From contig CAJINV010000013.1 in NCBI GenBank assembly GCA_905178155.1, positions 2,910,158 through 2,974,157 on the forward strand: a stretch of 64,000 nucleotides of DNA, written 5' to 3'. The position numbers and the translations under genes were made by a program. Numbering within the stretch: position 1 is the stretch's first letter; the number at the start of each line of letters is the position of its first letter. The notes beneath the pieces are model-generated. The model was not told where the DNA came from, did no database searches, and saw nothing but the letters and a program-made list of their open reading frames with translations. Below, piece by piece: positions 11,220 through 56,076 of the stretch. The stretch comes from Amoebophrya sp. A120 (taxonomy: Eukaryota > Protista > Dinoflagellata).

Positions 11220-14200
11220 ATGTTGCGCGCCACGCTGTCTGTGACTTCGAGCCAGCAGGGCAATCCGTACCTGGAGTTGGAAGACGAACTGTCGAGCAGG
11301 CTGGTGGCACGCAGAGAGGTGGAAGAAGAGGAAGACGAGCCACACCGGCATCCAAGCAGAACAACTGTCCGAGGCGGAGCTGGCTTGCCTGCGTGGATGT
11401 TCTCGGCGTGTTCTACTCCGTGCTCAACGAGTGACACTTTTTCCACCTCCTTCACGTCGACCTTTGCGAGAAATGTGAGTCTGTGCGTGTTACTTGTGAA
11501 GACGACCCTGCCGTTTATTCTGTCGAACCTGCTGACGTTTTTTCCGGACGTGGTGAACGTGTACGTCGCGAGTGGGAGCCTTGTCTATAAAAATTCCGGC
11601 GCATCTACTTCGGACTCGGAGCTTGTAGATGTCTCCCCACCCGCATCAACACGGACGACTCTAGTCCCGGCCATTGGCCTCGGGCAGCTGGTGCTGAACG
11701 GGCTGACGTTATCTCTCGTGTCCGGCCTCAACCAAGGCCTGGATGTGTACGTTCCGAACAGCCATTTGGCGAGCGGCAAAGAGTACTTCGCGCTGGTCTA
11801 CCTCGGGCGGGCGCACGCGCTGGATTTGCTGCTCTTGGTGCCGGCGGTGCTGGGCATTCTGCTCCTGGCCGGCCCGTGCGGGCTGGACTTTTTGCTCGAC
11901 GCCTACCTCGCTTTCTTCCCGGAAGCGGACGGCACCGGTGTCCGGGGCATCGGCGGCGCGATCGTTGCGCAGAGCGCCGCGTTCTAAGAAACGGGACCCA
12001 GTAGAAGGTGTAGTACTCCCGCTGCGCTCTATCGCTCGCACCTCGCACCGCTGGCGTATGGCTGCGAAAGAGCGAAAGCGATCGCACTAGTAGAGACGGT
12101 TTGTAGTAGGTATGGTTTCATCGGAAGGGAACGTGAAAAACTGGTTCATGCGAGTGGGCGCGCAGTATGGTCAACTATACGTGAAGACGAAAATGTCGGC
12201 ACATGCGTACTTAGATAGAGTTGCAACCGTAGATTATGTCATCCGCGATCCGCTCGGTATACATTCATAAAAACATATCTTGCGTAGAGTTTTTGTCCTC
12301 GAAGATCGAGGCCCTAGTGAATCATTTTCAAATCTGAGCGGCATGAAGATCACAAGAAATCGCATCTTTTTTTCCACTTCGGCGCCATACCAGTCTTCGG
12401 TACTGCTGTTGCGGCGCGCCGTTCTACGTGTTCGCCCACACCGCCTACCGGTATCGTAAGGAAAAATCCCTCCTCCCCATATCGAAAAGGCACGCCTCAG
12501 AGAATTTGCGATGCTGATTTGTGACCGCAGATCGTGGCGGTCTTGCAAGAAAGCAACGGCATAGGCTCCGCCCCATTATGCAGCCGGTTTGTAATGCTGT
12601 TGGGCCTACAGCATATACGTTCCCCATACTAAGCGCCTAGGCCAAAACCGTGCTACATTGGCACGATATGGGCCTGCAGTCCTCTACTGCAAGACAAATC
12701 CGATTTGTGTACGCAAATCCAGCATCAGACTTTTCATTTTGATGCGAAGAGGGGGGATTTTTCGTTTTGATAACCGGTTCACCCTCTTCCGGGGGAAGGT
12801 GGTGCTGCTTCTGCCCGTGCAGGTGCTCACGTCGCTCCTCCACCTTTTATGGTGCTACGTCCTGGTAGCAGTCGCGGGTCTGGAAGTGCCTACCGCGCTC
12901 GGGCTGGCGAATTCGGCGACCTGGGTGCTGCAGTTTGTTGGCTTCTATATTTTGCTCTGCCAACTGGAGTGCAGCTACGAGAAGTTTGACCTGGCGGGAG
13001 GTGCAGTGGACCCCGACCAGTCGTCTGCAAGTGCGGGAGCCGCCGCGGCGGAGGGACCACCGAGGAAGCTTCTTTTTCCCGAGCATGATCTGCGTGACGC
13101 GCCGTTAGAGGACGACGCGGGCATGAAGATCCCTCCCCTGCCGACGCGAGGCTCCCGGTCGGGCTCGTTTGCCGGGTTGAGCCTGGATCTTATCGACACG
13201 CACGTGGCCTTGACGGCGTCCAGGCCCGTGGTGGTGGACAATGCTTCACCCGCGCGAGCGGAAGTACAGGTAGACGAAAGCGTGTTGCCTGTCCATGCAC
13301 GAGAGGAGGAGAGCAGAAGCAGAGCCGCAAGTAGAAGTGCGGAAGCAGTTTGCAAAACACAAAATGAGAACAAACTACCACACGACTACACGAAGAAATT
13401 GTTGCCGGAAGAAGTAGTGAAGAATTCCGCTAATGCAACAGCTTCTGCGGCGTCTCTTCACACTTCCGTGCAAGAATCTCCGGAGCGTCAGTTTCTCGCG
13501 AGATCCTCCACAGTGGGCTCCTCATGTGCCGCCGGTGCCGCCAGCAGCGCTTTCAGTGCAAGTCGTACTGGCAACTACGAGCAGATGCAGGAGACCACGG
13601 GGAGCGACGCTATGATCGAAGCACGGCGCAACAGCAGTACTTCTGCCAGGAACGGGGATTACAAAGGCAGCCCCTTGATGCGGTCTTCAACGGCAGGACA
13701 GTACGTGGGCCAGACCACTAGAACAACGAACAGCCCCCGGAAGCAGTCGCGCGCCCCGCGCGCACTGCAGTACCAGGCGATCCGGGACTACCGGGAGAAA
13801 TCGCTCGTGTTGTCCCGTCGGGAGAGCAGCGGTTTGGACGCCGCACCACCACATGCGGATGATTTTGACCAGGTGTGGGCACCGGGCTCTCTGAATGGAA
13901 GTAGGCATATTATGGCACCAGAAGATGTTACTGGACGTCGAAGGAGGAGCAGCATGACGAGCGTGGATCCGTTTCAACAAGATCTCGACGACGATCCTCC
14001 TGCGCGTCTTCCCGATGGTAGTAATGTTGAAAATGCGAGCAGATTGACAAGTTCGTCTTCCACGACGAGCCTGTTTGTTCATCAGCAGCGAGGAGAGCTG
14101 CAAAGCGGCCGACGGAGCGTGACCGGGAGCTCTCCTGGCGGTGAAAAACACGACCACCTCCGTGAGCGGTACTATCCTAGTGCAGAGGTGGTCGGGGACA

Positions 14201-16402
14201 CGAAGTATCAGACGACAAGTAGCCGAAACTACTCCGCGGTCGGACCTCCGCTGGAGCAGCCGCTGCTTGCCCGTGGGGAAAATGAAGGAGACGTAAACGA
14301 AGAAGAACCTGGTGACTTCCTCGAGGACGACCCGCGGGTCACGATGAGTCAGAATCTTTCCCTGCTGTCTCCGACGGCGTCGTTCGTGGGGAAACTTCTC
14401 CGCGAGTCCTCGATGAATTTGTCGCAAATCTCGAGGTCCTACGCGACGTAGAAGGGGAGAAATCTTCGCCATCGCCGCCAGTTCGTGATGCCTCTGTGCA
14501 TGTGGATGAAATGAAGTTTATGCAAATTATCAAGTCATGTTGCCTAATATATCAAAACACGCATTTACTTATAATTGTGTTGCAAAATCATGGTCGTGAT
14601 GGTCTAGGAGAACACCCGCATTTTCGCCGGGATAGGTCCGTGTCGCTGTCCCGGCTGCCGAGCAAGGAGCGGAAAATTCCGCTGAAAGATGTGTTTTTGG
14701 TGTTCGATTTCACCAACAGCGATATTTGGTCCGTCAAGTCACTTTACCGCTACGCCCGGCTCTCGCTGCCAACGGCGTTCACGCAGCTCTTCACGGTGTT
14801 GCGCTACGAAAGCCTGCTCTTAGCGGTCTTGCTTGTCCAACATCAGCAGCAGCAGAGTTCGGAGATATTTTCCCCTTCTTCTTCCTCTTGGGCGGGGGAT
14901 AGATATGCTACAACCCAACCACCTACATCACAAGAAGCACTGGTAGGACAGTCCGCCGCAGCCTCACCTCACTCGGGATTGCAACCGCCGGAAGTTCTTG
15001 TTGGGGGCCAAGAAGCAACCGCCAGTGCATTAAATCTTGCTGGCGAGGCCAACATGTTCTTGAGCTCCAGTAGCAACACAACCCCCGTGGATTTCTTGTT
15101 GCAGGTAATCCTGACCAATCTCTACACGTTAGCGCTGTTGATTCCGCAGGGGGTGAGCTTTTTCCTCCTGCTCGCGATCGGCGAGTACCTGGGGTCTGGG
15201 CGGCCGGATATTGCCGCGGAATTGGCCCGTGTCGGCCCCACGTTCGCCGTCTTCGTCGCGCTGGCAAGCCAGCTGCTGTTCCTCAGCTTTGTCCGGGTGG
15301 ATGCGGTGATGTTAGGGTCTTCATACGACAGCGGCACAAGGCAGGACTCTTGGGAACAAAAAATCGCGAAAGCGGCTGCAGGTGAAGAGGATCGCACGGT
15401 AGATTGTTTTGGCGCGACGAGCAGTACCCCACTTTCTGGAGCGTTTCCTTTTCCAGGACCTTCACCAGCGGCAGCCACAGTGTGCTCGCCCGACAGCACC
15501 ACGTCGGGGAAGCACGGCGGTGTGTTCACGGCGGTGGCGTATCGTCAGGGAAAATAATGCCTCCTCCCCATATTGAAAAGGCATGCTTGTGAAAACTTTT
15601 GATGCGTATTTTTGGCCACAGGTCGCGCGTGTCTTGCAAAAGAGCGTGAATTCAGAGCGTTTGCCGTATTATGCAGGCTATTTTTTGCGGTGCTGCGTCT
15701 ATAATAGAGCAGGCCTCTGCTATGCTAAGAGCCTACGCCGAAACATTATAAACACCCCTGGCTACTTACGCAGGCCTAGGATTAACCTGCAGACCCTCAC
15801 TACAGGACAAAGCGGGTTCGTGTGCGCAAATCGCGCGAGCGTCACAGATTTCCAGTTGAGTAGGGGGAGGGGGAAGTTTTCATTTTGATATGGGGGAGCT
15901 GCTGTTCAGCGTGTACCACGTGGAAGAAGCGTCCGCCGCCGACCTGGCGAGCACGCTGCAGGTGCTGTTCGCGCAGTTTCTACTCGAAACGTTGTCCCTC
16001 TCGTTCGCGAGCATAATCCGGGCCTGCGCTTTCTGGCGGACGGGGTTTCTCGTTTACGGGCTGCAGGTGCTGTGCAACCTGCCCGTCGTGCTGTTGCTGC
16101 AGCAGGTGGCGTTTCACTCGAAGGGGTCGAGTACAGCAGGTCGTGGTTTTGGAGCCGGTTTGCTTTCAAAAACAAAACCTCCAGCGAAAGCTTTTTCATC
16201 TCCTGCTCCTGCCTCGAAGGACGAAACAGCGGCAGGCAGCATGCAAAGTTCTTGCTCTATTCTGCTGCCCATTTGGACCGGTGCCTTGCTCTTGTCGGTT
16301 TGTGGTGCAGTGGTCTTCTACAAGAAGCTGAAAACCATCGACTTTTTGCAACGGAGCGAGGCAGCGAGAAACCGACTTCGGAAGGAGTACTGGAGGCTGT
16401 GA
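11220..16402 (+). CDS. MATE-family (multidrug and toxic compound extrusion) transporter, spliced, with long low-complexity insertions
   Basis: MATE-like segments: LGQLVLNGLTLSLVSGLNQGLDVYVPNS..G; LHLLWCYVLV..LGLANSATW; ARLSLPTAFTQLFTVLRYE; IPQGVSFFLLLAIGEYLGSGRPDIA; SFASIIRA. Exons join across introners 12452-12772, 14440-14634 and 15540-15890, plus an intron at ~11981-12393 whose exact donor is uncertain. Confidence 0.8.
12452..12772. mobile_element. Introner, family B
   Basis: TATCGTAAGGAAAAATCCCTCCTCCCCATATCGAAA ... GAGGGGGGATTTTTCGTTTTGATA; perfect TSD ACCGG; frame restored (HTAYR-FTLF). Confidence 0.92.
14440..14634. mobile_element. Introner, singleton family I (weak TIR)
   Basis: TAC...GATA ends, perfect TSD GGTCC. 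Removal deletes the stop of ORF 12658 and joins it in frame to ORF 14496 (ISRS-VSLSR). Confidence 0.7.
15540..15890. mobile_element. Introner, family B
   Basis: TATCGTCAGGGAAAATAATGCCTCCTCCCCATATTG ... GGGGAGGGGGAAGTTTTCATTTTGATA; TSD TGGCG/TGGGG; frame restored (FTAV-x-ELLF). Confidence 0.85.
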
Positions 16403-16942
16403 ACAGTAGCAGGAGGCCGTGCCTGTTTATTGCTGCCGCTTACGTTTAGAAGAGGTTTGAGTTTCTGCATGAGAAATAAATACCGACACACAAACTCATT
16501 CTACGTGCAGTACAGTGCAGTGCGTTCCTTCGGTTTCTCCATCATCATTTGCGGCAAGTCGTGTTTCTCGTGCTGGCTCGCCCGCAGGAGTGCGTTCCCC
16601 TGATGGCACTTTCCGGTTCCCGGTGGTTCCAAACAGGTTTTCATTTTCTGCAGCACTTAGATTTAACTCCCTTAGTTGACCACGCAAGCGCACTGTCAGG
16701 GGTTGTCGTCCGCTCCTTTCTTCGCGGATTCTGTAGTAAACTGGTGTTATCTACTTCTATCTTGACAGCGTCGTTATGTGAGCGTGCAGAAACACATCAT
16801 CGTATAAATCAGGATCCGATCAGTGTTTTTTTTTCGTGGCGCACAGCGAGCGTATTTTCGTGTCTTGGTTGGTACATGATGGAACTGTAACCGCTGACAG
16901 TCGTCGTGCCTCCGTCGTTCAGTAAGAACATGTTCGATGATC

Positions 16943-18210
16943 TGGTAACCAAATGCGTGCGCGCGCGCGCGCAGAGCGCGCGCCGGCCCACGAAGCCGGC
17001 GCGCGCGCTCTGCGCGCTTGCGATATTGCTTAGCAAACGCAGCGCGAAGGCAGTTGCCGTTACCATATAGGGCAACCGCCGGGAGNNNNNNNNNNNNNNN
17101 NNNNNNNNNNNNNNNNNNNNNNNNNNNNNNNNNNNNNNNNNNNNNNNNNNNNNNNNNNNNNNNNNNNNNNNNNNNNNNNNNNNNNNNNNNNNNNNNNNNN
17201 NNNNNNNNNNNNNNNNNNNNNNNNNNNNNNNNNNNNNNNNNNNNNNNNNNNNNNNNNNNNNNNNNNNNNNNNNNNNNNNNNNNNNNNNNNNNNNNNNNNN
17301 NNNNNNNNNNNNNNNNNNNNNNNNNNNNNNNNNNNNNNNNNNNNNNNNNNNNNNNNNNNNNNNNNNNNNNNNNNNNNNNNNNNNNNNNNNNNNNNNNNNN
17401 NNNNNNNNNNNNNNNNNNNNNNNNNNNNNNNNNNNNNNNNNNNNNNNNNNNNNNNNNNNNNNNNNNNNNNNNNNNNNNNNNNNNNNNNNNNNNNNNNNNN
17501 NNNNNNNNNNNNNNNNNNNNNNNNNNNNNNNNNNNNNNNNNNNNNNNNNNNNNNNNNNNNNNNNNNNNNNNNNNNNNNNNNNNNNNNNNNNNNNNNNNNN
17601 NNNNNNNNNNNNNNNNNNNNNNNNNNNNNNNNNNNNNNNNNNNNNNNNNNNNNNNNNNNNNNNNNNNNNNNNNNNNNNNAGGGCGGTCCGGCGGGCGCGC
17701 GCTTGCGCCGTACCATCGCGATTGGGAAAAAAAAAAAACGCACTAGAAGCGGGCGGAGGCATGTCCCAAAATCCACGTTTGCTCTGGGTTGTGGGCAGAA
17801 ATTCGGGATCTTCGCCGGGTCTGAAATGGCCGATTTTGGTGGCCCAGCAGGGTGCGCGGGTTTGTGGTTTCGCACAGACCTTCCTGGCCAGGTGGCCAGT
17901 TTGTCACGCAGGGGGCTAGAAAGGATGCCCCGCTGCGAAATAGCAGACCGGATTTCGCCGCCAATGCTTATCGCAGGAGCCTGCGGGCCGCCGCGGGCTC
18001 CACCACTTCCCCGCGGCCCTTAAGCTTTGAATGCGAATCCGGATGCCCCCGATGGCCCGCGATAAATGGCGAAGAAGTGGGATTCTATATTAAAAAGAAA
18101 TGGTGGTGGCAGCCGCGCGGCGAAAGCGCGGCCCGCAGGGCCGCGCTTTCGTGGCGCGGCTGGTTTGGCTTTCGCGCTGGTTAGATTTTCGCGCACGCAT
18201 TTGGTTACCA
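16943..18210. mobile_element. GC-rich TIR element spanning an assembly gap
   Basis: Perfect 21-bp inverted repeat TGGTAACCAAATGCGTGCGCG (16943-16963) / CGCGCACGCATTTGGTTACCA (18190-18210). It is absent from the paralogous copy at ~21080, and no TSD is evident. Confidence 0.65.
17086..17679. other. Assembly gap (594 N)
   Basis: Run of n characters. Confidence 0.99.
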
Positions 18211-19349
18211 ATATCGCCCTCCGGGCGCGATCTTCATACCTCTCGTACAATTTCTACGCGTCCGTCGTTTCCGTTGACAGAATCAGCGCTGCCGCTGATG
18301 CTTGGCTGGCGTGATAAGCTTGTTGTCGAAGATGAAAAGCATCGTCGATCTGCTTCTTTGAACCTACTTAGTTTGTAAAAGCACAATAACTATCACACCA
18401 GCTCCCCTCACTTGCTTCTACAGTCTAGTACTACGTGCTGTTGTACTACTAGAGCTTCGTTTTTTAAAATTCGAAGTTAAAAAAGTAAAAACAGGATCCG
18501 CTTCGCAGTCAGTGTGATTGTGTCGCAGTGGCAAGTGAGTACAACAGTGTTTGTGTTCTCTAGGTGTGCAACTCCTACTTGCATTGGGTATCAATTTTAC
18601 AGCTTTAGCGCGACAAGTCGCAATCTTCCAGACCCAGACATATTTGCAATCCATACATATCTTATCCTTCTTGAACTTTCGTCTTGAATTTCTATTATGC
18701 CGCTGCGGAAGTCGAAGTTTGCGCGGATCGGAGCGGCTACCGCCTTGACGGCTCCCCTCTTGCGGGGGGGGGGGCGTTGTTGGTGCAGCGAAGATCAGCC
18801 CCACGAATACGCACGCGTGGGTTGGATCGGAAACCTCGCCGTCGGGGTTTGTGGACATGGGTGGTCGCCGCGAGAAGAACCGTGTGCGCGACAAGGAAAA
18901 GAAGGAGAAGAAGAAGACGAGAAGTACCAAGGCAAGCCTAGCTGCTCGTGTTGGTCGTGATGATGATGCTGGCCCAGTCGGCGACCTAGCAAAGAAAGCA
19001 GTGCCGCCGCTCGTGCAACTTATGAAACTTGTATTTTTCTCGGCTCCCGGGGGTCGCACTTTTTATCGAAAGGCTATAGTCCGGAAGAAGTTGCCAAGTA
19101 GCAGCACCTTACCAATCCGACCACGAAGATTGTTGGATTTTCACGAGAGTTGTTGCTACCTTTGCAAGTCAGTTTTCTTCATGTCGTGCGTGGAATGATG
19201 CATGGACGCAAGATGAATGCAAATGGCGGTCCGTGGAGTCTGGTGTAAGTAAGCATTTACTCATTACTGTTGTAGTAGCCGACGCGCCGCGGCCTCTTGT
19301 GCTTCGTGGCGGTTATTTTCATTTGAAATGGCCAGGCCTAGTCTTAGAA

Positions 19350-20210
19350 TATCAATATGGCTCGTTCGTGGGACCGAGAAATATCAAATGCGAATTTGTC
19401 TGGCTCCGGGTCTGGAACAATTTTGCAAACTTGTCAGGATCGGCTGGAACGCCCTGTAGACCCTGTGGCACGTAGCTGCTCGACTTTTTCGCCAGAGTAA
19501 CGCTTCTCTGTGAGGCTGCGTCGCACCATGTTGCTGAAAAGCGTCTCGACTTTTTTGCGCAAATGCAACCAGGCATGCGCATACGTAGCAGACAGCCGGC
19601 TTAAAGCTTCTCATGTCTGGGTGTGTATTGCATATGTCCTGATCATGTAGACACTATCTAGCATCATGACTTTCCAGACCTTCACCGGGGCAGATTTGCA
19701 AGTGATGCGAGAAATTATATCATGATAGTCAAGGTTGCTGCAGTGCCAGGTGATGTGACGAAGGCTGACGCTCAAGGCCATGCAATGGCCGGCCAGATTC
19801 AGGACGTCGGGGATGAAGCTGTTGGGGGTGCGAAAACTGCCTTCTGGGTCGCGTGCGAATTTTTCAAGCAGCACTGGGTATGTGAATAAAAGCAAAACGG
19901 TAGCGCGAACCTGTCCTTCAGGTAAACAACATATATTGGACGCCCAGTCTTTATTTACAATTTTCGGTTGAAAAGTATAAGTTCCCATCGACGCAGATCC
20001 ACATTGTCCCAAAAAATACTTAGCAATCTCCCCGTTCATCGCATGTGCTCTGTTCTAGCTCCACCAGCCTCTTAGCCAACCTTTTATCATTTTATCAGAT
20101 CGCAAACCGAACTCTTTGCCCGAAGCACTCCCGCATGCCAATGCTAGTACGTTGAAAAATGCCTCGCACCAGACAAGATTGAAAACTACCCAAATATCGT
20201 GCTGTGAACA
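19350..20210 (-). pseudogene. Possible decayed reading frame of unknown origin
   Basis: The frame of ORF 19611-20039 continues with protein-like text on both sides across single stops (..KGWLRGWWS*NRAHAMNGEIAK..TQT*EALSRLSATYAHAWLHLRKK..). No family recognised. Confidence 0.25.
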
Positions 20211-20274
20211 GGCAAGTCAATGTGAATCCATGCATAGCCAGGAGCTGCGCAACCAGCCGGAAATACCTGTCCGA

Positions 20275-20602
20275 TATGCGTGACAAATATGTCTGGGTCC
20301 GGAATAATGCCACATTTGTGATGCTCGGCCACCAAGACGGCGCTGTAATTTACTGCATGACACGGAATAGCCAGATCGCTAGTCTGCTTGTACGGTAATG
20401 AAAGATTGGGGCTTACATATGTTTTTTAGTGAGTGCGTCTGTTAGAGTTACTATACTTACAGATGGACGCGGGCCGCGGATATCGGCCTTTCAAAAACTT
20501 GAAGTGCACACTCGCGTACCGGATTTTCTGTGTCACTTGCGCGGCTGCATCACAAATGTCGTGTCACTTGCTAGCTCGAGCCAGACATATTTGCAGTTGA
20601 TA
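20275..20602. mobile_element. Intergenic introner-like element (family A')
   Basis: TATGCGTGACAAATATGTCTGGGTCCGGAA ... CCAGACATATTTGCAGTTGATA; flanks TCCGA/CGCGA (3 of 5 match). Confidence 0.6.
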
Positions 20603-20792
20603 CGCGACCCTAAAACCCCAGTTCGAATCCCAGTAGACCCAAAATAATTATATCCCCTGAAAGCTAAAATTTTGCCCTAAGAACCCAAATAGAAGTAAGG
20701 CCGAGAGGACGCTGCAGGTCCCTGCGGAAGGAGAGAAAGCCCTGATGCCCCTTATTGTCTGCAGCACATAGAGCCCGATACAGGCTTTCATT

Positions 20793-21787
20793 GTCTGCAG
20801 CACTTGGATTTACCTCCCGTAGTTGACCACGCAAGCGCACTGTCACGCGTTGTCGTCCGCGCTATTCTTGACGGATTCTGTAGTAAACTGGTGTTGGTTT
20901 CTATCTTGGCAGCGTCGTTACGTGATCGCGCAAAAACACTTCGTCGTACAAATCAGGATACGATCATTGTTTTTTTTTTCCGTGGCGCACCGCGTATTTT
21001 CGTGTCTTAGTTCGCCCTTGGTGGAGCCGTAAGCTCTGACAGTCGTCGTGGCTCCGTCGTTCAGTAGGAACCTTTTTGATGATGCCTCTCGTACAATTTT
21101 ATTTTTACGTCCCGTGAGCAGGTCTGCATTTTTTCCGTCCGTCGTTTTCGTTGACAGAACTGGCACTGCTGCTTGGCTGACATGATAAGTTTGTTGTCGA
21201 AGATGAAAAGCGTAGTCGATCTGCTTCTTTGAACCTAGTATAAAAGCACAATAACTATCGCACCAGCTCCCCTCACTTGCTTCTACAGTGTAGTACGCGT
21301 GCTGTTGTACTACTAGAGCTTCGTTTTTTAAAATTCGAACGTAAACACAGGATCTGCTTGCAGCCAGTGTGATTGTGTCGCAGTGGCAGCTGAGCACAAC
21401 AGTGTTTGTGTGTTCTCTAGGTGTACTCCTACTGGCGTTGAGTATTAATTTTACGGATTTGAGTAGTTGTCTTTCAGATATCTTATCCTGCTTGAACAAC
21501 TTTCTTGAATTTCCATCATGCCGCTGCGGAAATCGAAGTTTCCGCGGATCGGAGCGGCTACCGCCTCGACGGTTCCTCTCTTGGGGGGGGCGTTGTTGGC
21601 GCAGCGAAGATCATCAGCCCCACGAATACCCACACGTGGGTTGGATCGGAAACGTCGCCGTCGGGGTTTGTGGACATGGGTGGTCGCCGTGAGAAGAACC
21701 GTGCGCGCGACAAGGAAACGAAGAAGAAGAAGACGAGAAGTACGAAGGCAGGCCTAGCTGCTCGTGTTGGTGATGATTCTGGCCCAG
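20793..21787. repeat. Segmental duplication, copy 2 (uninterrupted)
   Basis: Colinear with 16645-16940 plus 18239-18975. Confidence 0.85.
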
Positions 21788-26304: not shown

Positions 26305-29300
26305 ATGGAGTTCGTGACCGCGGCGTTTGCGGGCACGCTCGCGTCCACGGCGCAGCAGATCTGTATCCTGAGTAAAAACGTACCCACACCAGAGTTGTAA
26401 TGCAGATTTGCAAAGACAGGAAGACTTGTAATGCGCATCCGAATGAGAGCCATTTCCAGTCGTGTTTTGGAATTTGTGATGCTGTGAACAGGATGAGCAG
26501 ATGAATCTGTGATGCGGCTGCACTTTCTAACCTGCACAACACTGCAGAGTGCAACTTGTCATGCGTGACTCACAAAACTCCTCGGCTTGTGTTGCAAAAT
26601 CCCCATCCTGACTCTGGTGTGGGTACGTGTTTACTCAGGATAATCTGGGGCTACAACCTATCCACTGCAAATGTGTCTGGGCGGTCTGGAATAAACTTGT
26701 CCCGCGGGGGCTCATAGGTGAATGACAATATGTTAACTTCTACAGGACGCAGCCACGCATGACAGCTCTCTGAACGTTCCTGTGGTGCGTAAGTAACGCG
26801 CATGGAGGATGAGCATTGGTATTGCTGCATGACACAGAGACAGCACTGTTTTGCCACAACTCGATGCATATTTACAGAGTTCGGGAATACGGAAGTTCAG
26901 CATAAATAATACAGATCCTGCATTCTGGCAGACCCAGACATGTTTGCAGTTGACACAACCGAAATTTGTACAATTTCGACACCCACATGCGGCAGGCCAG
27001 CGTCACGCAGCGCCAGTGGGGCCGGAAGGAGTGGCTGTGGCTGCATCGCGAGGACATTTCGAATTTGGTGAACATGACCACGAGCAAGTATGAAAAGAAA
27101 AAATCCCCCCTCCCCATATTGACAACGTACTTTTTCGAAAATTTGTGTTTCTGATTTGTGACCACAAATGGTCTCTGTGTTGCATGAAGGCAACCCCACA
27201 GGCTCCGCCGCTTTCTACAGGCGGTTTGTCATGCTCTTGCTCCTACAGCGTAGACGTCTGCCACGCTAAGCGCCTAGGCCAAGACCTCTCTACTCAGACT
27301 TGATACGGGTCTGCAGTCCTCTCCAGCAAGACAAACCTGATTTGTGTACACAAAGAAATCCAGCAACAGAAGTTTTCACTTCAATATGGGGAGGGGGGAT
27401 TTTTCCTTTCGATAGCAAGATGGGCATCTACACCGTGTTCTGCGTGCTGCAATTGGGATCGCTCTTCTCCTTCCTCTCTGAGGGGAAAATGCTGTACGCC
27501 TATACGGAGGACCCTATCCCGCAGAAAATTCGCACCGCGTGTTTGGTCGTGCGATTCTGCATCGAAGTTGTAGAGGCCAAGACACATGATGAAAAAAGAA
27601 AAGGATCACGTGGATTGTTGCCGCAGGAATAAGTAGATTATCTGTCATGAATATACGTACTTACACAGCCTGCTGCTCCTGATGAACACCTCACAGAACG
27701 ACGGAAGATATTTCAATGGCTCTATGCATCACAGACATGGCGTGCTCTGCTTTTTTTCTGCGTGATAGACCAGGAGCACAGCGTGCCGATCTCGCCCGAG
27801 TGGATCACGCTCCCCTACTCCATCGCCTGGACCGCCTCCTTCGTGTATCTGATGCTGGCCACCTGGCTGGCGCTGCACGCGTCGGTGCTCGCGTCCTCGG
27901 GTTCCACGTCCTTGCTGTTGCAGTCGAATCAGCTCCGGTCCTTTCCCACGGGGATCGAGGTCGATCAGGTGCGCCGCAAGTACTACGACTTCGAGCAGGT
28001 GCAGGGCGAGCGGGCGCTGCGCGTGCCCTTTGTGGACCGAGTGGGCAACGAGGTCGACAGTAGGTGGCTTCATAAAGATAACGCACCGGAACAACATCAA
28101 CTGACCTATTGCGGCGCAGAAGATGAAACGAAAACCACGATTCTTGGGAGGAGAGATCGCAAATGCGAGCCACTTTTTGGGGCACTGTCCTCGGCTGCAA
28201 CAAGGAGCAACGATTTATTCCACTACCACCCCGACGGGATGGAGCACTGTTTCTTGAACGAAATCGCGGAGGAAGCCAGTCGGCGGGACTACGTGGCGTC
28301 CGCAGCAGGGGTCGGCCCGTCCGCCACTTCTTGCCCCATACACCACATGGCGGAACAAGTGAAACACGCGCCAGGTCAGGGAGCTGGCGTGCCTGCATTG
28401 AGAGCTTCGAACGCCACCGCATCTATCGGAGAAAAGAGAACTGTCTCGACATTGCAGGAACATGCCGAGAGCCGAGCTCTGGTTACAGTACACAATGAGC
28501 AGCCTGCTGTTGGTTTGAGCACCAGCTGCGAGCACGGCGACGCGGCGTCCGCCCTCTCCTGGAACCAGCGTCGCGTCAGTCTGGGGGAGGCAAACATTCA
28601 CATGAAGCACTGCTTCACCAAACCAGGCGTCGTCAAGAGCACGGCGGTGGCGCAGCCGGTACGTAGTCGAAACCATGCGCAACAAGAAATGCTTTATTTT
28701 TCCGCTGCGCCCACTCCAGCGCAGACGGGAGCCGCTGGTGAAGTGCCAGAAGCGTCCCGCTACGGAGACGTAGAATTGCAGAACCCGCAGTCTCATCTGC
28801 CACCCCGCCCCTTCCCGCCGCTTTCGCAGCCCCAGCAGGCCCAGTTTCTGGTGCGGGCGTCGCACTTGGACCAGTATCGCTGTCTGCAACGGCACTGGCA
28901 GAGCTACGACGCGTACGCGCGGGTGGCCATGTTGACCGGCACGCTGTACTTTCTGACGGCCGCGAGCCTGTATGCGTCGCTGTACTACTTCAAGACGTCC
29001 CCCTTCATTTCCTTCGTCTCCGTCTTCGTCCTGGCGTGGTGCAAGCTCGCGGTTGCGAAACTGGACTTCAGCGCCAGCCGCGGGTGGCACCTTTGGTTCG
29101 ACGTGTGCATCTTCTGCGAGTCCTGCTGCCACTGCTGCGCCGTGTTTCTGGAGCGGTGCGACTACAGCGCGCAGAACCCGGAGTTTCGCTTCGTCATGCG
29201 CCACCTGTGCACCGGCGTGCAGCTGTTCACCTTGTTTTCCTGGACCGTGGTGGTGGTGGTGTTGGCGCAGCCCGCGGGCGAGGAAGACGAAGACTTTTAC

Positions 29301-35300: not shown

Positions 35301-37054
35301 TTTCCCCCCACTCGCCTCGCTTCGGCGAGCACGAGGAGCACAGGAGCAAGAGCAAGAGCAAGAGCGGGCGGTTTTTTATGCAACGGAGGAAAAGCTTGTC
35401 AAATCTGTTCGGCGCGCCGGGGATCTCGTCTAGTAGTACTTTGATGAAAACCACCTACCAAGACCAGAACCCGAGCGCCTCTGTTCCTGGTGGGGTGTTG
35501 TCCCCTTTCGAAAACAGCACGCCGCAGTCCACGCCAGACACGACACCCTTCTCGTCGCCGGCCCTGGGCAGGTTCGGCGGGATGGGTGGGAGGGACCACT
35601 CTGCAGGCGCCACCGGAGCAGAAGGTCCGAAAGAGGCTCCGAACCTGCAGTATCGCCAGGTACTGCGAAATCTTCACCTGAGAAATACTAACTCCGTGGG
35701 CGAGGATTTATCCGAACCAAGGCCGCCACGACAAGAGGCCATTTATGCAGCTCAGCAGGCAACGCTACCGCCTCTTCCAGTCGTCCAACCGCAAAATAGT
35801 AATTATCACAAACCCTCCCTCCGGTTTTTCGCGGAAGGGTTGCACAGCGGGGTGTTCCGCCACGTGGCTTGCCGAGCGGAGTGCGGCCGCATGGTCTTAG
35901 CAACGGCCTTCTCCGTGTACTTCCCCGAGGAGAGCGATATTGACGCTGTGAGCCGGCAGACGAACTTGCAGAAGCACAAGAGCTGCGAATTTTTCGGCAA
36001 GGAGATCGTGTCCATCTCGTTGGAGAAGACTTCCTGCGACGTTTTAGTTCTGTTCGCCAACGGGAGCATTGCGAGGTGCAGGAGTAACACGGCGGGGGAC
36101 GATCATGCCACCGGGAGGTCAACGTCTTCCTTTTCCAGCAAAACCACGAAAGTGGAGTTCGCCGGGGGCGGGTTGCGGCGGGCGGAAAAGCGCGCCGAGG
36201 CGCTGCTGCCGTTCCCCGGGCATCTTTACAGTCACGGCGGTCGTGCAGCTGGGGACGGGCAGGTGGGTGCTGGAAGTAGCTGGAGCACAAGACCCTACGA
36301 CCATGATATGCTGATGGCAGTGAAGACAAAGCAAAATAACGAGGGGCTGTTGCTGTGGCTGTCGCAGCACCAAACCAAACCAAAGGTAAGACCACCAGCA
36401 GGAGCAGCTGCGCCACACGGGCCGCCCTCTTCTGCGAAAAATGTGAGAACAGCACAGGGGCAGGAACAAGATCTTCAGACTGCTGCAGCAGCTCCTGCCT
36501 CGGATCATCCAAACAGTTCTACTTCGTCCTCAACTGCTAGTAATCTGTCGAGAAGACGCGACGTACTACTGCCACACGAGCTGCTGAGAAGAAGAGACGG
36601 GAACAGCACGGAAGAAGTAGAGCAGGAACAACTTCTACAACAAGTATCTGCTGCAAGAAGGCGCAGCAGTCCCCAGGAAGAAATATTGAATTCCCCCAAC
36701 GACGACCCACCAGGAAAAGTCTACTACAAGCCGAAGTCGCGATTTCTTTCCCTCCCGCTCACTTTTGAGGAGACCAAGCTTCCGTTACGGGAGATAAAGT
36801 TCGGGATTTTTGCCGGCCAGGACCGGATGCTGTGGCACGACAAGTCCAGGAGAACCTACGTGTTCGGAAGGGAGAGAAATGAAGTCGAGGAGGATGTTGG
36901 CTCTGCGAGCAGCGCTGTAAGAACGTTTCAGCAAACGGATTTCAAACTTCTGACTACAATTCATCATCCCGAGTGGCGGTCGGCCTGTTCCCTGTCAGAG
37001 GACCGGTTTCTGCTCTTACGCGTCGGCGCGCTCGAAGTGATGCGGCGGAATTGA
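26305..37054 (+). CDS. Very large (~3100 aa) multi-pass membrane protein; all five identified introns are introners
   Basis: Exons under precise excision: 26305-26363, 26648-26658, 26961-27088, 27420-27514, 27773-30167, 30431-37054, totalling 9312 nt (3104 codons). The N-terminus reads MEFVTAAFAGTLASTAQQIWGYNRNLYNFDTHMRQ..LHREDISNLVNMTTSKMGIYTVFCVLQLG. It has several TM blocks (FVYLMLATWLALHASV; WQSYDAYARVAMLTGT). From recall, this resembles an uncharacterised alveolate membrane family; not searched. Confidence 0.85.
26364..26642. mobile_element. Introner, family C
   Basis: TATCCTGAGTAAAAACGTACCCACACCAGAGT ... ACTCTGGTGTGGGTACGTGTTTACTCAGGATA (32-bp TIR, 1 mismatch); perfect TSD ATCTG; near-identical to 48467-48745. 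Confidence 0.95.
26659..26955. mobile_element. Introner, family A'
   Basis: TATCCACTGCAAATGTGTCTGGG ... CCCAGACATGTTTGCAGTTGACA; perfect TSD CAACC; frame restored (GYN-R-NLY). Confidence 0.88.
27089..27414. mobile_element. Introner, family B
   Basis: TATGAAAAGAAAAAATCCCCCCTCCCCATATTGA ... TCAATATGGGGAGGGGGGATTTTTCCTTTCGATA; perfect TSD GCAAG. Confidence 0.93.
27515..27767. mobile_element. Introner, singleton family E
   Basis: TATCCCGCAGAAAA ... TTTTCTGCGTGATA; TSD GACCC/GACCA; frame restored (YTED-x-EHSVP). Confidence 0.8.
30168..30425. mobile_element. Introner, family C
   Basis: TATCCTGTGTAAAAACGTCCCCACC ... GGTGGGGACGTTTTTACACAGGATG; perfect TSD CGCCC; fuses ORF 27762 to ORF 30452 in frame (GPPP-ANFFYHQMAPP). 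Confidence 0.93.
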
Positions 37055-38986: not shown

Positions 38987-41900
38987 ATGGCCGCGAGAGA
39001 AGAAGTCCCGGATACTTCGCTTTCCGGCGACGGAGGGGGGGATGGCGAACGTGAGCAGGAAGGCGAACGCGGCGAGGACCAAGAGATGCCTCCGGCGGAA
39101 GGGGATCAGCAAGAACTACATGCGGGAATAGCGCCGCAACAGGACGGCCCCAATCGAAGTTGGATCGACAACACGTGTCTCCTCGATGCCTCTGATGGTA
39201 CAAGTTTTTTACACTAAAATTCCTTACCGCGTTGCTTTCAGAACTCTGATGTGTGCATGTTTGCTTTTGATACTTATGCATGCGTTGTACTTGCGCACGT
39301 GGCATTAAACGTACTTCGAAATGCTCACGAAAATTGAAAGAATTTTCCACGACTTTGACAGACGAAGATGAAGAGTCCGCTGCTTGCGGTCCAGGGGGAG
39401 AGGAAAACGGTAAGGATGCGAAGAACCCTGATCTTGGTAGAACTGTAGTCAAGCAGGAGGACAAAAACAGCGACGATAAAACTATTGGCAATGTTGAAAA
39501 TGCTGAAAAGAACAACGCGAGTAGTAGTTGTCCGCACTTGATTTCTTCCACCACGGTGGAGCAGGAAGACGCCCCGCCGCAGCTGTACCTGCCCCAAGTG
39601 ACGGACTTCCTTGAGAATCGTGCGTCTGGAGATGGTTCTTGTCCGAGCCGGGGGGAAATCGTGCTGAACCAGGGTCGTGGTGGTGCAACCGCAAATGGCA
39701 GCAATTCCTTGTACTACTCCACTAACGCGCAGCAAACCTCTTTCCTGCAAACCCCGGCCCTGGGTGTGGTCGAGCCGATGTCGCCACCGGACGACGCAAT
39801 GAATGGGTTGGGCGGGGGTACTAGCAGTAAAAATCTGAAGGAAAACTACGAACTTTCCACTCCGAACGGAAGCCCGAACAGCTCCATTTCATCTTTCAGC
39901 GGTAAGAATAAAGTTCAGCATGATGAGCGGGGTCATCGGCAGCAAAAATTCAATGCCGCTTCGAGCGCCGGGAACAAACAAGGTGGCGGCGAAGACAAAA
40001 ACGATCATAGCGGGAGATCCTCGAGTAGTTCATCCGGTAGCGATGAAGAAAGTTCCTCACGGTCGTCGTCATCCGGTTCGCGACGAAGTAGAGGATCCTC
40101 GTCATCGAGTTCGTCAGTTAGTAAGGGGAAAAAGGAGAAAAAGCGGCGGCGGAAGAGCAAGAGCAGTGCGTCATCCAAGTCTTCTTCGTCCAGTCGGAGT
40201 TCCTCCTCGCAGAAGTCCCCCTCCAAGGATCCCCGTGCCAAGAAATCCGCCACGATTTGTTCCAAGCGGGACAAGAAACGAGACCGGAAAGAAAAGGAGC
40301 GGAAGAACAATAATAAAGCCTCTACAACTCATGGTACCGCGAGCGGCAGAAACCGCCACAACAAGCGGAATAAGAAGGAGAAAAAGAAAAAGAACAAGAA
40401 GCGAAAAAAGTCTTCTTCCTCTTCGGGTTCCTCCTCCTCGAGAAATAGAAACGGCGGACGGCGGAATAAAAGTTGCAGTACTGCGGCGATTCACTTTGGA
40501 GGTGGTGCCTACAGTTCACGTGGCGAAGATCTTCACGATCGGGGGCGCAACAAGCGGAGCCGCGAGAGCCGAGACCGTGCGGGTGGGCCGCGGCGAGGGA
40601 ACATCAACTCGTGCAGGTATGATAATTATGACAAAAGTTCTTACCACGAGCGTCGTGACCGTGAGCACGACCGCTACAACCGCCGGGGCGAGGCGACACA
40701 GCGGCGGCTGGGCCGCGTCGGCGGCACGAATTACCCGCCAGACGATGATTTTTACAGAAGTAGAATGCAGCAGGGCGCCTCCTCGCGGGGACATGGTGAG
40801 AGCGAGCGGTATCCGTCCAGGCGAGGCAGCATGGATGTGGATTATCGTGGCGGTGGTGGCGGAGCAGGAGGGCAACAACAGCACGTCGTGAACAGCAGCA
40901 TCAGAACGCAATTAGATCACCCGCGCGACCTGCTCTTCAGTAACAAAAACAACGCTACGGTGTCATTAACGAGCAGGAGCGGCGGGGTCGCGTCTACCTC
41001 CTCTTTGATGCGCCGGAATGTTAATATGAGTGCGGACATGTCCTCCTATCAGGCGTTTTCATCAGGAGCCGGACATGATTTTGCTCCGGATCATAATTTG
41101 GTGGGCGGAAAAGCCACAAAGATGTCAAAGACCAAAGACAGTTCGGTTCTTTTGGAAAACATTCTCTCGAAGAACGGGATCGCGGGGAACCACGATAGAG
41201 TCGGAGCAAATCCACAAGTGCAGGGTGGACTACCCGGGCAACGAAACCCGAGTTGCCGCGACAGCTCGAATTGCTCACCCAGAAAGGCGGGTAAAAGAAA
41301 TAAAAAAGGCAAAAAGGGGCTTGCACAAGCGGGCTCAATGATGTCTACAGGTGGGAATATGACACTACTAGGTGTAGTGCCGCAGAACAACAGCGTTCGT
41401 GGCGGAGTTAGCGGAAACATTCAACCGTATTCGGGGATGAATGAAGCTGCCACGGCCGCCCCGAAGCGAGGGACATTGGTGCCGCTCAGTCATGGAGCGG
41501 CAAAGGCTGCCGCGGCGCGGGGAACAGGTGCAGCTCAAATGTTGTTGAATACGCGGAAAAACACCTCCATCAATGGGAGCCTGAATAAACAGCGAAGTCG
41601 CGGTCAGGGAAACAATAAAGCTGGGCGGCGGTTGTCGGAGGTGAACAGGAACGAGGACAGCAGTTGCCACTTGTCTTCGCCGAACTTCAATAATGAGGAA
41701 GACCAGGAACAACTCTTCCCGGCGGGGAGCAGAGACACAACGACTGTCAACAACGCGCGGAAAGCGAGTAAAGACCTGGAAGAACCGCCAGCGCAGCTGT
41801 CGGAAGAGTGTAAGAAGAATATCGAAGAAAGATGTAAGGAGATCCGGGAAAAGGATAACATTTCGTCGTCGGACGAGGACGTCGAGAAGAGCGGCGGCCT

Positions 41901-44900
41901 GCTGGAGAAAAAAGTAAAAGAAGAGAAGGAAAATAACGTCGCCCCTGCGGTGGTGACACAAAAAACTTCGCCCGACGAGCAGAAGGACTCCGAAGGTACA
42001 ACAGTTACTAAGAAAAGCCTCAATGGCGGCGCCGCCGCCGTGGACGAGGAGCAGGATGATGTGATCCTGGACCACGGCGCGCAGCAGGGAAGCAGCGGAA
42101 GTGACGAAAATACCAAGCTCCAAGGCGTCAAGGTCATCGAGAGAGGAGACGACGTGCACCTTGCTGACGTAGAAATGAAAGACGCGGAAACTATGAAAGG
42201 CGAAGAACAGCAAGACGAAGCTGAAATCAAGAGCAGGAGTAAGACAGATTCAGCCAAAGAACTGTGTCCTGGCACCTGGCAGGGAAAGAATGGCGACGGA
42301 GGTGTCGTAGTTGACATGGGCAATGATCTCTCGTCGGACAACGAAGCGGCCGCATCCGATTTCAACAGCAACGCCTCCGCTTGGGACCACGTGTTGTCAC
42401 CGAGCAAGGGGGAAAATTTCGTGCAGGATAGCACGGTCGTGGTGGAAGAAAACGATAACGATGTCGAAACAAATAGCGCTGCAGTAAGTAGCACCGCGGC
42501 CACGGGGATTGCGATGCTGCCGAAGGAAGTGGTGGCGGAGGTACTTAAGGCATAAGCATAAAAGTAAGTACTTTTGGAATGAGACGAAATAGCGCTCGTC
42601 CGCTGATTCTCGTTGGTATGGTGCACATGAATAAATTTCGCCTTTTTGATATGCACTTTGTATCTATGATGTTATCTTCGGAAAAAAAATTGTGAAAAAA
42701 TAAAACGCTGGCAGGTTGAAGGAAGAAGGCTGACCCATTTGAACATAGGAAAGGAGCAGCTGTTGAAGAAGAGAGAAACCACCCGACAGCAGAAACTCGC
42801 GGAGCAGCGGGCGAAGTTTGATCAGCAGAGGGATCTCCGGACCCGGAATATGCATTGCAGGAGTATTGTACTGGTAGTGATTGCATTACAATTTTTTTCG
42901 AAAAATGGAGTTTGTCATGCTGGAATAATACGTATTAAACAAAGACACCTGTGGTCGTGCAAGATTGCGATTATAACAAGGGCGATACTTCTTTTGCACA
43001 GGATACGGAAAGCGCAGCAGCAGAAGGAACGGTTCGAGCAGCAGCGGAAGCAGCAGCAGAACGTATCATAAGGAAAAATCCCCCCTCCCCATATCGAAAC
43101 GAAGTTTCTGATGCTGGATTTCCGTACACGCATCAGATTTGTCTTGCAGTAGAGGACTGCAGGCATATGTCAAGCCTCAGTCGCGAGGTTTTGACGTAGG
43201 CGCCTAGCATGGCAAACGTGTATGCTCTAAGCCCAACAGCATCACAAACCGCATGCGAAATGCGGGGCGCTCTCTGGACTTGCCTTCTTGCAAGACAGAC
43301 AGGATTTGAGGTAACAAATGCGCATCACAAATTTTCAGACGGATACGTTTTCAATATGGGGAGGGGGGATTTTTCCTTACGATAGAACGCGCAGCAGCAT
43401 CAGGATTCGTTAGAGCAGGAAAGCCACGAGCCGGCGATTCCCCTACCCTCCTGCGTCGCGAACTCGATCGCGCAACCAATGATGATGCAAAACGAGGACG
43501 ACGATCGTGGGAGGCAAGTAAACCGGAAAAATGCCAAGAAGAACACGGCCTACAAGCCCACTAGTGGGTATTTCGGGGGCCTTGCCGGGGTCAGGAAGGA
43601 CAGCAGAGATAACAGCGAGTTGTTTGTTGATAATGCTTCGCACAGGAACGGACCGTACAGCAGTCACGGAGCAGGCGGGGGACGCGATGATGACTCCAAT
43701 ATGCTGCGAGACCGCGGCGCTGCGCAGAATCACGGTCGCGGATATGGGAAACATCGGCGCCGCCGAAGATCGCGGTCGAAGGAGCGCAACAACAATTGGT
43801 CGACGTTCTTTGGCAATACTGCAGGCCCTGGCAGTTCTTCGAGCTCCGTGGCGGGGAACAATGTGGGCGGGGGCGGCGGTTGTAATGCGCACCCACTTCA
43901 CCCGCCTTCGGATCTGTTTCAAGAACAGAACGACGACCGCAACGTTGGCCAAGGAGGAGGAAGCCGTTGGTTGAAAAAGGGCGTTTACTCCGAGCGGATT
44001 CGCGGCCGGACCAAATCGAAGCAGAAGCAAAGGAGCAGAGAACAGGCTCAGCGGAGCAGAGAACAGCACGGGAAGAGGAACAACGCGGCTGGTTCGCACA
44101 GCAACTACGGGCAGTACGGTGCTTACAAGAACTCTTACAACGAACAGGACTACTATAACAACCAGTACGAGTACGAAGTGGACGAAAACGGCCGGCGCAT
44201 CGATCCGCACGCTGCACAAGGAGAAAGGGCAGCTGCCTTGATCCACCAACGCAGTGGAGAGAATAATAATAATGCTACTTCTACTTCTTTATCTTTCCCC
44301 ATGCCCAAGAAATCGGGACGGTTGGTTTCCAAAGACGGCGAGTTTGAGGTCGACGACGAGATGCATGGCGGGACCGGAACTGGTTCTAACGGGGGCGAAA
44401 ATTATGTGAAACAAGCAGGCGACCACCTGAACGAGGGGAAAGCGCTGTACCCAATCAAGGGCGCGGTGTTGCAGCCCTGGAACGTATTGCTGAATACGGA
44501 CGGGAAGCGGGAGGAATACGCGGAAAGGCAGCAACAGATCAAGGCGAGCAAGGCTACTGCTGCTTGGCATCAGGAAGATGCTGAGGACGACGACTGGGAC
44601 GATTGGTGGACCTGGACGGAGACCATACCTGTGCGGACGGTGCGGACGGACGGACAGACGATGACCATGATCAAAGGAGTAGCACATCCTGATCCGGACA
44701 TACTAAATGATAATCAGCCCAAGAATAACATCCTGAATACTAAAAAGCACCAGCCTCCGGCGTGGCAAGGAGGAAAAGTCGCCAGAGTGGGAACAACAGG
44801 GGAAGCTGCCGCGTCAGCGAATGGAGACGCGGCCAGCAGTAGTTCTAGCGCGTCATCCTCCTCGGCTGCGAATGTGGTGACGACGATCCCAGAAAATAGT

Positions 44901-56070: not shown

Positions 56071-56076
56071 GACACT

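What the first reader, a model, noticed from the sequence alone, without database searches (positions are those of the whole stretch)
12452..43384. Same introner family sits in both orientations within + strand genes
Seen: the interior of 43064-43384 (..GATTTGTCTTGCAGTAGAGGACTGCAGGC..) is the reverse complement of 12452-12772 (..GCCTGCAGTCCTCTACTGCAAGACAAATC..) and of 27089-27414. All three host genes are on +, and all frames are restored. Established: ordinary spliceosomal introns are polar (donor, branch point, acceptor). Inference: excision signals here are strand-symmetric (terminal TAT/ATA, the TIR stem or the bidirectional internal motif), or removal occurs by a non-standard route.
Basis: partly seen in the sequence, partly recalled or inferred. 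Interest (0 to 1): 0.8.

Follow-up and report, generated by a model that had tools for sequence, protein, structure and literature searches.

The report
Two-way transposon introns cut by ruler
In a marine parasite, small jumping DNA elements sit in genes facing either way and are cut out of the RNA cleanly in both directions without the usual intron end letters, likely at fixed distances from their mirror-image ends; two-way elements of this kind are known from other algae, but this fixed-distance rule was not found in print.

Summary
Confirmed. 43064-43384 is the reverse complement of 12452-12772 (79%) and 27089-27414 (78%). The window is Amoebophrya sp. A120 (one public A120 protein maps exactly over all 1315 residues). 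The elements are its known TAT…ATA inverted-repeat introners with 5-bp target duplications. RNA-type contigs of one sample remove both 43064 (three runs) and 27089 (one contig) as element + 5 nt from + strand genes; 12452 has no RNA cover. In a second assembly, family copies face the host gene 36:45, so no bias was seen. Copies with decayed duplications leave one common register: the intron would start 1 nt before TAT and end 4 nt after ATA. G at the donor is at background (67 of 187), GT-AG in that register is rare (5 of 187), and an in-frame GT…AG pair is bypassed in 3 of 3 testable copies. The internal motif is not the symmetric signal. DNA excision is unlikely. Either-orientation introners are published for Polarella and Aureococcus, with near-canonical sites; the fixed register without G or AG was not found in print. 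The machinery (altered spliceosome or separate pathway) is untested.

The parts
12452..12772 (+). Family 1 introner, copy A (reference orientation); TIRs, 5-bp duplication ACCGG; predicted intron 12451-12776 (GT..CG)
   Evidence: no RNA cover; lies upstream of the public model's start
27089..27414 (+). Family 1 copy B, A-like orientation; duplication GCAAG; removed as 331 nt (element + 5); inferred intron 27088-27418 (GT..AA); in-frame GT..AG pair 27088-27415 not used
   Evidence: (one contig, run X1, depth 3)
43064..43384 (-). Family 1 copy C, opposite orientation, in a + strand gene; duplication GAACG; removed as 326 nt (element + 5); inferred intron 43063-43388 (GT..AC); in-frame GT..AG pair 43063-43385 not used
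   Evidence: (runs X1, X2, X3 of one sample)
15540..15890 (+). Diverged family 1 copy D, A-like; flanks TGGCG/TGGGG; removed as 356 nt in the public model; the protein allows only registers 4 or 5
47178..47489 (-). Diverged family 1 relative, closer to C-like orientation (94 vs 52 against B); removal gives a 553-codon + frame
8989..9240 (-). Family 2 introner, opposite to its two neighbours in the same gene; removed as element + 5 in the public model; in-frame GT..AG pair not used
9284..9545 (+). Family 2 introner (reference orientation), same gene as 8989
9606..9859 (+). Family 2 introner, same orientation as 9284, same gene
50438..50700 (-). Family 2 introner opposite to 9284, in the + strand carboxylesterase gene; removed as 268 nt in the public model
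61955..62206 (-). Family 2 introner opposite to 9284; host called +
26364..26642 (+). Family 3 introner; removed in an X1 contig (loose end read through)
6433..6739 (-). Family 3 introner opposite to 26364, 30168 and 48467; host called + (weak, 7.9 vs 0)
26659..26955 (+). Introner ending ACA instead of ATA; removed in the same X1 contig as 26364
27515..27767 (.). Introner with flanks GACCC/GACCA; removed as 258 nt; allows registers 0-4 only
42849..43005 (.). Introner with duplication CGGAA; removed as 162 nt; no GT start and no AG end in any of six registers
45313..45553 (.). Old introner with decayed flanks ACTTT/TTATC; removed as 246 nt; allows registers 3 or 4 only (TT..AT at 4)
   Evidence: four runs, one sample
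45558..45568 (+). 11-nt exon between two introners
   Evidence: table 5c
45570..45962 (.). Old introner with decayed flanks AGTAC/ACAGC; removed as 398 nt; allows registers 4 or 5 only (CT..AG at 4)
   Evidence: four runs, one sample
39271..47172 (+). Host gene of C: stop-free 2039-codon path across seven RNA joints, three of them GT..AG; the two long exons and the last one tested have no Pfam match

Best explanation
These are non-autonomous inverted-repeat transposons of Amoebophrya A120 that sit in exons in both orientations with a 5-bp target duplication and are removed from the RNA as element plus 5 nt, likely at a fixed register of 1 nt before TAT and 4 nt after ATA, by what is predicted to be an altered spliceosome that reads the paired ends. 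Shown: both orientations present and removed; length is element + 5; G at the start and AG at the end are not needed; an in-frame GT..AG is bypassed. Inferred from four copies with unequal flanks, if one register holds for all: the -1/+4 cut. Inferred: since both ends read TAT-N7-AAA on either strand, the transcript meets the same N|TAT…ATA-NNNN whichever way the element faces, so orientation cannot matter while the cut stays polar; the interior is not read. Inferred, weakest step: the TA at intron positions +2,+3 stands in for the host donor GTA, and the terminal hairpin replaces U1 and AG scanning by holding the ends together.
For: Removal of B and C as element + 5. Register 4 is the only one common to the six RNA joints tested; the public model of 15540 allows 4 or 5. 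All nine predominant A120 non-canonical motifs in Farhat Table S4 have T in second place and include GT-AC, GT-AA, GT-CG, CT-AG and (as AT-AT, TT-AG) non-G starts, as a -1 start predicts. Orientation 36:45, 18:21, 6:9 in three families; 34:36 with one copy per locus. Flank frames called separately on each side agree in strand for 49 of 50 and join under +5 (mod 3) for 47 of 49, with 8 A-like and 11 C-like family 1 copies. G at -1 in 67 of 187 against 63-77 of 187 at several other left-flank positions; GT..AG in register 5 of 187. Arms have the same profile at the 5' and 3' ends. Terminal stems fold for A, B, C with z -6.6 to -8.3. For a spliceosomal link: 4 of 4 RNA-supported canonical donors are GTAC; A25 repeats start TTA and its motifs are TT-NN, so +2,+3 = TA in both strains; end-triplet variants fall at position 3 in the 5' arm (7 of 8) and at positions 1-2 in the 3' arm (3 of 4), Fisher p 0.067; U1 snRNA was not detected but nearly all spliceosome proteins were.
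Against: No lariat, branch point or circle was observed. G.U pairs do not exceed A.C in the stems (206 vs 221), and the sense duplex is not more stable (79 vs 104), so selection on an RNA stem is not shown. The register rests on two cases per bound, one of them a depth-3 contig and one a gene model. RNA evidence is assembled contigs of one sample whose type is guessed; efficiency cannot be measured. Neighbouring same-family pairs were 24 same vs 11 opposite, though 12 of the 24 come from two four-copy clusters. Table S4 motifs may partly reflect aligner choice.
Confidence: 0.55

Rival explanations
1. Same elements and same -1/+4 geometry, but a separate non-spliceosomal pathway (an endonuclease and ligase, or a dedicated complex) cuts at fixed distances from the terminal hairpin, as proposed for Euglena nonconventional introns.
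For: No G or AG needed; a canonical in-frame GT..AG is bypassed in 3 of 3 testable copies; 42849 has neither GT nor AG in any register; Euglena introns use a paired motif with fixed 3-nt and 5-6-nt spacers and leave as circles (review); U1 not detected in A120.
Against: TA at +2,+3 matches the host's canonical donors and the A25 pattern; the weak polar pattern of end variants; 15% of canonical A120 introns share the IR/DR layout; tunicate TIR-bearing non-canonical introns are reported as spliceosomal. No stem-selection signal.
Confidence: 0.3
2. The spliceosome uses variable registers, aligned by the target duplication (exon-end pairing on U5); the apparent -1/+4 rule is a coincidence of few cases.
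For: Most copies have a perfect duplication (207 of 284), where the register cannot be seen; Farhat Fig. 3 legend calls the sites variable relative to the hairpin; Polarella classes use up to five frames.
Against: Copies with only 1-2 of 5 flank positions matching are still removed as exactly element + 5 (45313, 45570); all informative cases share register 4; Table S4 has T second in 9 of 9 motifs; mismatches are spread over the five positions (12, 11, 8, 8, 7).
Confidence: 0.1
3. The elements are excised from DNA (somatic or stage-specific), and the RNA comes from empty alleles.
For: Element + one duplication is also the empty-site sequence; TIR elements are natural transposase substrates; only one other run of this genome was laid.
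Against: Run X5 contigs identical to the window run unbroken from flank into A and B and through 15540 and 27515 at depth 43-45; a second assembly keeps such elements in exons; the hybrid 4+1 flank at decayed copies is not a transposase footprint I know of (own knowledge); interiors show a sense-strand A>G/C>T excess, 173/4859 vs 120/4833, p 0.002, as expected of transcribed DNA. Only 15 of 466 joints were shown, so rare empty sites are not excluded.
Confidence: 0.04

Closest known systems
Amoebophrya A120 introner elements (Farhat et al. 2021, PMC7789003)
   Same: Same organism, TAT + 7 nt + AAA inverted repeats, 3-5 nt direct repeats, non-canonical ends, hairpin. These elements are members.
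   Different: The paper's text and supplement file mention orientation only for genes and leave the intron border position unknown. Orientation neutrality, the -1/+4 register and the bypass of GT..AG are additions here. Its figures were not seen.
Polarella glacialis introner classes (Roy et al., bioRxiv 2020.10.14.339549) and Aureococcus anophagefferens introners (Huff et al. 2016, seen only as cited there)
   Same: Seven classes (1, 2, 3, 6, 7, 8, 10) create introns in either orientation; class 12 has a 5-nt duplication whose last G plus the first element base form the donor, with the acceptor at duplication positions 3-4, the same geometry as -1/+4.
   Different: There the sites are GT/GC/GA and AG, supplied by the duplication (NNAGG), class 12 works in one orientation, and classes 6, 8 and 10 are described as biased to one orientation. 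Here any flank serves and no bias was seen.
Euglena nonconventional introns (Nomura et al. 2025, PMC12501133)
   Same: No GT-AG; complementary motifs at both ends; cuts at fixed spacer lengths, longer on the 3' side; proposed MITE origin.
   Different: Motif CDG/CHG with spacers 3 and 5-6 and a purine at the exon start, against TAT/ATA with spacers 1 and 4; 'orientation' and 'reverse' do not occur in that paper's text; unrelated lineage; tested by knock-in, whereas nothing here is tested.
Fritillaria borealis non-canonical introns (review PMC11282704; PMC13326754)
   Same: TIR and TSD-bearing new introns with non-canonical ends, removed by a changed spliceosome.
   Different: Preferred ends AG-AC/AG-AT; explained by divergent U2AF and snRNA modification (listing), with U1 present; no ruler from the TIR in the passages read.
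MITEs (non-autonomous TIR DNA transposons)
   Same: Short, TIR, fixed-length TSD, no long ORF (longest 69 codons), repeated subterminal motifs 3-13 times denser than outside, random orientation.
   Different: No transposase identified; Farhat et al. found none in A120; ordinary MITEs in exons are not removed cleanly.

Membership tests
Amoebophrya A120 introner elements | Genome is Amoebophrya sp. A120 | tested here: met
   P0001, named A120, matches 1315 of 1315 residues in four + exons; P0005 and P0006 also map
Amoebophrya A120 introner elements | IR starts TAT, seven variable bases, then three or more A | tested here: met
   A, B, C; arm profile of 133 elements (the finder required an A-rich arm)
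Amoebophrya A120 introner elements | Direct repeat of 3-5 nt at the boundaries | tested here: met
   5 of 5 in A, B, C; 207 of 284 perfect in loci, 0 of 19 shuffle hits with 4 or more
Amoebophrya A120 introner elements | Repeated, and removed from RNA with non-canonical ends | tested here: met
   112-114 long matches per copy in 138 loci; B and C removed, no register gives GT..AG; A not covered
MITE / TIR DNA transposon | TIR, fixed TSD, no coding capacity | tested here: met
MITE / TIR DNA transposon | Cognate autonomous element or transposase | not testable with these tools
   no whole genome held; none reported for A120
U2-type spliceosomal intron | GT/GC donor and AG acceptor | tested here: not met
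U2-type spliceosomal intron | Polar interior, one orientation | tested here: not met
U2-type spliceosomal intron | Branch point and lariat; dependence on snRNPs | not testable with these tools
   needs lariat sequencing or inhibition
Polarella/Aureococcus two-way introners | Introns made in either orientation | tested here: met
Polarella/Aureococcus two-way introners | GY/GA and AG sites carried or recruited from the TSD | tested here: not met
   G at -1 67 of 187, AG at +3,+4 14 of 187, both 5 of 187
Euglena nonconventional intron | N3CDG … CHGN5-6|R signature | tested here: not met
   ends are N-TAT … ATA-N4; base after the 3' cut is A/G in 107 of 187
Euglena nonconventional intron | Terminal pairing required; excision as a circle | tested here: inconclusive
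   stems fold but no wobble asymmetry; circles not testable

The most novel reading that the evidence does not exclude
Amoebophrya A120 runs a second splicing system that measures 1 nt and 4 nt out from any TAT…ATA hairpin, ignores G, AG, branch point and direction, and overrides canonical sites; it makes this transposon class harmless at any exonic site, and it arose independently of the Euglena system.
Probability: 0.3. Interest if true: 0.85.

Novelty: new variant of a known kind. Interest (0 to 1): 0.55.

Why it matters
About 65% of A120 introns are non-canonical and about 30,000 are introners, and their borders and splicing route are stated as unknown. A fixed -1/+4 rule that ignores orientation and end letters would explain how these elements spread without selection on site or direction, would collapse the scattered motif table into one rule (N-TA … N4), would fix the annotation of those introns, and gives a sharp test of whether a U1-less spliceosome or another machine does the work. 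Searches that demand same-direction similarity would split such families in two.

Tried and rejected
My first idea, that a G before TAT is selected as a GT donor (common among window copies), failed in the larger set (67 of 187, mirror C 56 of 187, p 0.27). A frame-neutral GT..AG route (element + 2) was rejected for B, C and 8989. A polar loss of the A/T run in old copies, suggested by 42849 and 45313, was not seen (15 vs 14). Wobble and duplex-energy tests were null or slightly opposite (21 vs 42 for the best-paired copies). The internal motif was rejected as the signal. One search was swamped by other copies from run X5 and showed no RNA joint for A or the 8989-9859 trio. No family 2 TIR in viral contigs. 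No Rfam match. 13 of 16 exons had no Pfam match. Huff et al. 2016 was not held. Three look-ups of earlier findings returned nothing. Rows dropped: of 284 elements, 259 passed the TSD/IR filter, 187 had a strand call at threshold 5 and 133 at 10; 81 of 110 family 1 copies were oriented; the two-sided frame test kept 50.
Full report
Observation. The three segments are as described. C (43064-43384) aligns end to end with the minus strand of A (79.2%, E 3e-75) and B (77.6%, E 1e-66), and A and B align on one strand. Interiors with 40 nt trimmed at each end score 266 and 242 in the opposite orientation, against a shuffle maximum of 32. Each begins TAT, ends ATA, has a terminal inverted repeat and a perfect 5-bp flanking duplication. 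A scan for this layout found 31 candidates in the window against 1-5 in five shuffles. Two more families also occur both ways: family 2 has 8989, 50438 and 61955 opposite to 9284, 9606 and 48071, and family 3 has 6433 opposite to 26364, 30168 and 48467.

Source. A public protein named Amoebophrya sp. A120 matches four + strand exons at 49928-54466 in all 1315 residues; two more A120 proteins map to 13123-16399 and 7571-10711. Farhat et al. 2021 (PMC7789003; abstract, sections 10, 11, 12, 16, 32, term passages, supplement passages and part 3 of 5 read; figures not seen) describe A120 introners with repeats of the form TAT, seven bases, AAA, and 3-5 nt direct repeats. These elements are members of that group.

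RNA. Contigs of runs X1-X4 (one sample; RNA type is the tool's guess, but they lack GT..AG introns) skip 326 nt at C in three runs and 331 nt at B in one contig of depth 3. Both equal element + 5. The contigs that skip C also skip three GT..AG introns read on +, and the joined path is 2039 codons without a stop on +; keeping C gives a stop at codon 1154. B's host gives 3110 codons on +. The public model P0006 removes 8989, 9284 and 9606, which face opposite ways in one gene, each as element + 5; this is annotation, not raw data. A itself has no RNA cover and lies upstream of the public model, so its removal is only inferred. Run X5 contigs, identical to the window, run from flank into the elements without a break, which argues against DNA excision.

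Orientation counts. A scan with the family 1 repeat gave 138 loci; the 80 listed come from contigs of one assembly, with copies up to 95.6% like C and no match over 400 nt to the window. They hold 284 elements against 19 shuffle hits, none of which had a 4-5 nt duplication. A codon model trained on window exons called the strand correctly in 32 of 33 called test pieces of 50. Relative to the host, family 1 is 36 A-like to 45 C-like (27:26 at the stricter threshold), family 2 18:21, family 3 6:9; the 95% interval for family 1 is 0.33-0.56. A noisy caller would also give 50:50, so I called each flank separately: strands agree in 49 of 50, and frames join under +5 (mod 3) in 47 of 49, including 8 A-like and 11 C-like family 1 copies. 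Against this, neighbour pairs were 24 same and 11 opposite, but 12 of the 24 come from two four-copy clusters.

Where the cut falls. A perfect duplication hides the register. Four copies with unequal flanks reveal it. With k the number of left-flank bases kept, 27515 allows 0-4, 45313 allows 3-4, 45570 allows 4-5 (RNA) and 15540 allows 4-5 (gene model). If one register serves all, k = 4: the intron starts 1 nt before TAT and ends 4 nt after ATA. This gives GT..CG, GT..AA and GT..AC for A, B and C, but AT..GA, TT..AT, CT..CC and CT..AG for others. All nine predominant A120 non-canonical motifs in Table S4 have T in second place, as this predicts. Copies with only one or two matching flank bases are still removed as element + 5, so an intact duplication is not needed. 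G at -1 occurs in 67 of 187, the flank background, and GT..AG in 5 of 187. B, C and 8989 each offer an in-frame GT..AG pair (element + 2); none is used. Element 42849 has no GT or AG in any register and is removed in three runs.

Mechanism. Both ends read TAT-N7-AAA on either strand and the two arms have the same profile at the 5' and 3' ends of the transcript. The transcript therefore meets the same ends whichever way the element faces; orientation independence follows from TIR symmetry, while the cut is polar. The interior motifs are enriched 3-13 fold but are one-sided in family 3, so they are more likely transposase sites (inference). Which machine cuts is open. For a changed spliceosome: the four canonical donors seen are GTAC, so N-TA-T keeps +2,+3; A25 repeats start TTA with TT-NN motifs; end variants fall at position 3 in the 5' arm (7 of 8) and at positions 1-2 in the 3' arm (3 of 4), p 0.067, or 0.024 without one doubtful copy; U1 was not detected while other parts were. 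For a separate route: no G or AG is needed, canonical sites are bypassed, and Euglena offers a hairpin-and-spacer precedent. Stems fold well (z -6.6 to -8.3), but G.U does not exceed A.C (206 vs 221) and sense duplexes are not more stable (79 vs 104), so selection on RNA pairing is not shown. I put 0.55 on the altered spliceosome, 0.30 on a separate pathway, 0.10 on variable registers and 0.04 on DNA excision.

Comparison. Roy et al. (bioRxiv 2020.10.14.339549; passages read) report Polarella classes that make introns in either orientation, as in Aureococcus (Huff et al. 2016, not held), and a class with a 5-nt NNAGG duplication in the same geometry; those use GT/GC/GA and AG sites. Gozashti et al. 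2022 (PMC9860276; passages) allowed opposite-orientation matches in their search; Gozashti et al. 2025 (PMC12130899; passages; 12 of 14 supplements searched, no 'orientation') class A120 families as TIR elements. Nomura et al. 2025 (PMC12501133; abstract, passages, section 8) show fixed spacers in Euglena. Reviews PMC11282704 (sections 5, 6, passages) and PMC11453091 (passages), and PMC13326754 (passages) add nothing on orientation in Amoebophrya. Searches for Amoebophrya with introner and bidirectional, Syndiniales with introner, U1 and hairpin, and introner with either or both orientations found no paper on this point. The library lacks most subscription papers, including the journal version of Roy et al. 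and Henriet et al. 2019, and preprint supplements are closed; these may bear on the novelty claim.

Verdict. Two-way introners and A120 introners are both known, so the finding as written is less surprising than scored. What was not found in print is the combination of no orientation bias, a fixed -1/+4 cut without G or AG, and bypass of canonical sites. New variant of a known kind; interest 0.55.

Noticed in passing
window 45558-45568 and 26647-26657: Two 11-nt exons, each between two introners, are retained in RNA contigs; exon definition across so short a stretch is hard for a standard spliceosome.
   Followed up: partly
window 39198, 42541, 44945, 46034: All four RNA-supported canonical introns start GTAC, an unusual donor consensus that may point to a changed U6.
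   Followed up: partly
window 26364-26642 and 48467-48745: Two family 3 copies are 94.6% identical, yet 48467 has unequal flanks GGGAT/GCAAT; recent move or gene conversion into an older site.
   Followed up: no
window 55616-56073 and 56071-56383: Array of short palindromic units (about 29 nt spacing) followed by a second tandem repeat, downstream of the carboxylesterase gene.
   Followed up: no
window 16633-25060: Region with several dispersed repeats (16633-16941 vs 20780-21083, 84%; 18259-18977 vs 21136-21787, 82%), an assembly gap at 17086-17679 and few long frames.
   Followed up: no
family 1 copies in L001-L138: Interiors show more A>G and C>T than G>A and T>C on the host's sense strand (173/4859 vs 120/4833, p 0.002); TIRs do not. 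Looks like transcription-linked mutation bias.
   Followed up: partly
arm positions 5 and 12, loci L001-L138: Position 5 is never T (0 of 133 in either arm) and position 12 is A in 133 of 133 (163 and 165 of 166 with a looser finder).
   Followed up: no
window 14440-14634: A further introner starting TAC, duplication GGTCC, removed as 200 nt in the public model; missed by my scans.
   Followed up: partly
window 45570-45962: The 3' arm has a 3-nt insertion relative to the 5' arm, yet the cut follows the terminal ATA; it also ends in AG at exactly the predicted acceptor.
   Followed up: partly
window 30395-37054 and 39271-47172: Very long + strand frames (3110 and 2039 codons after splicing) whose tested exons have no Pfam match; a voltage-gated chloride channel exon lies at 62652-63773.
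   Followed up: no
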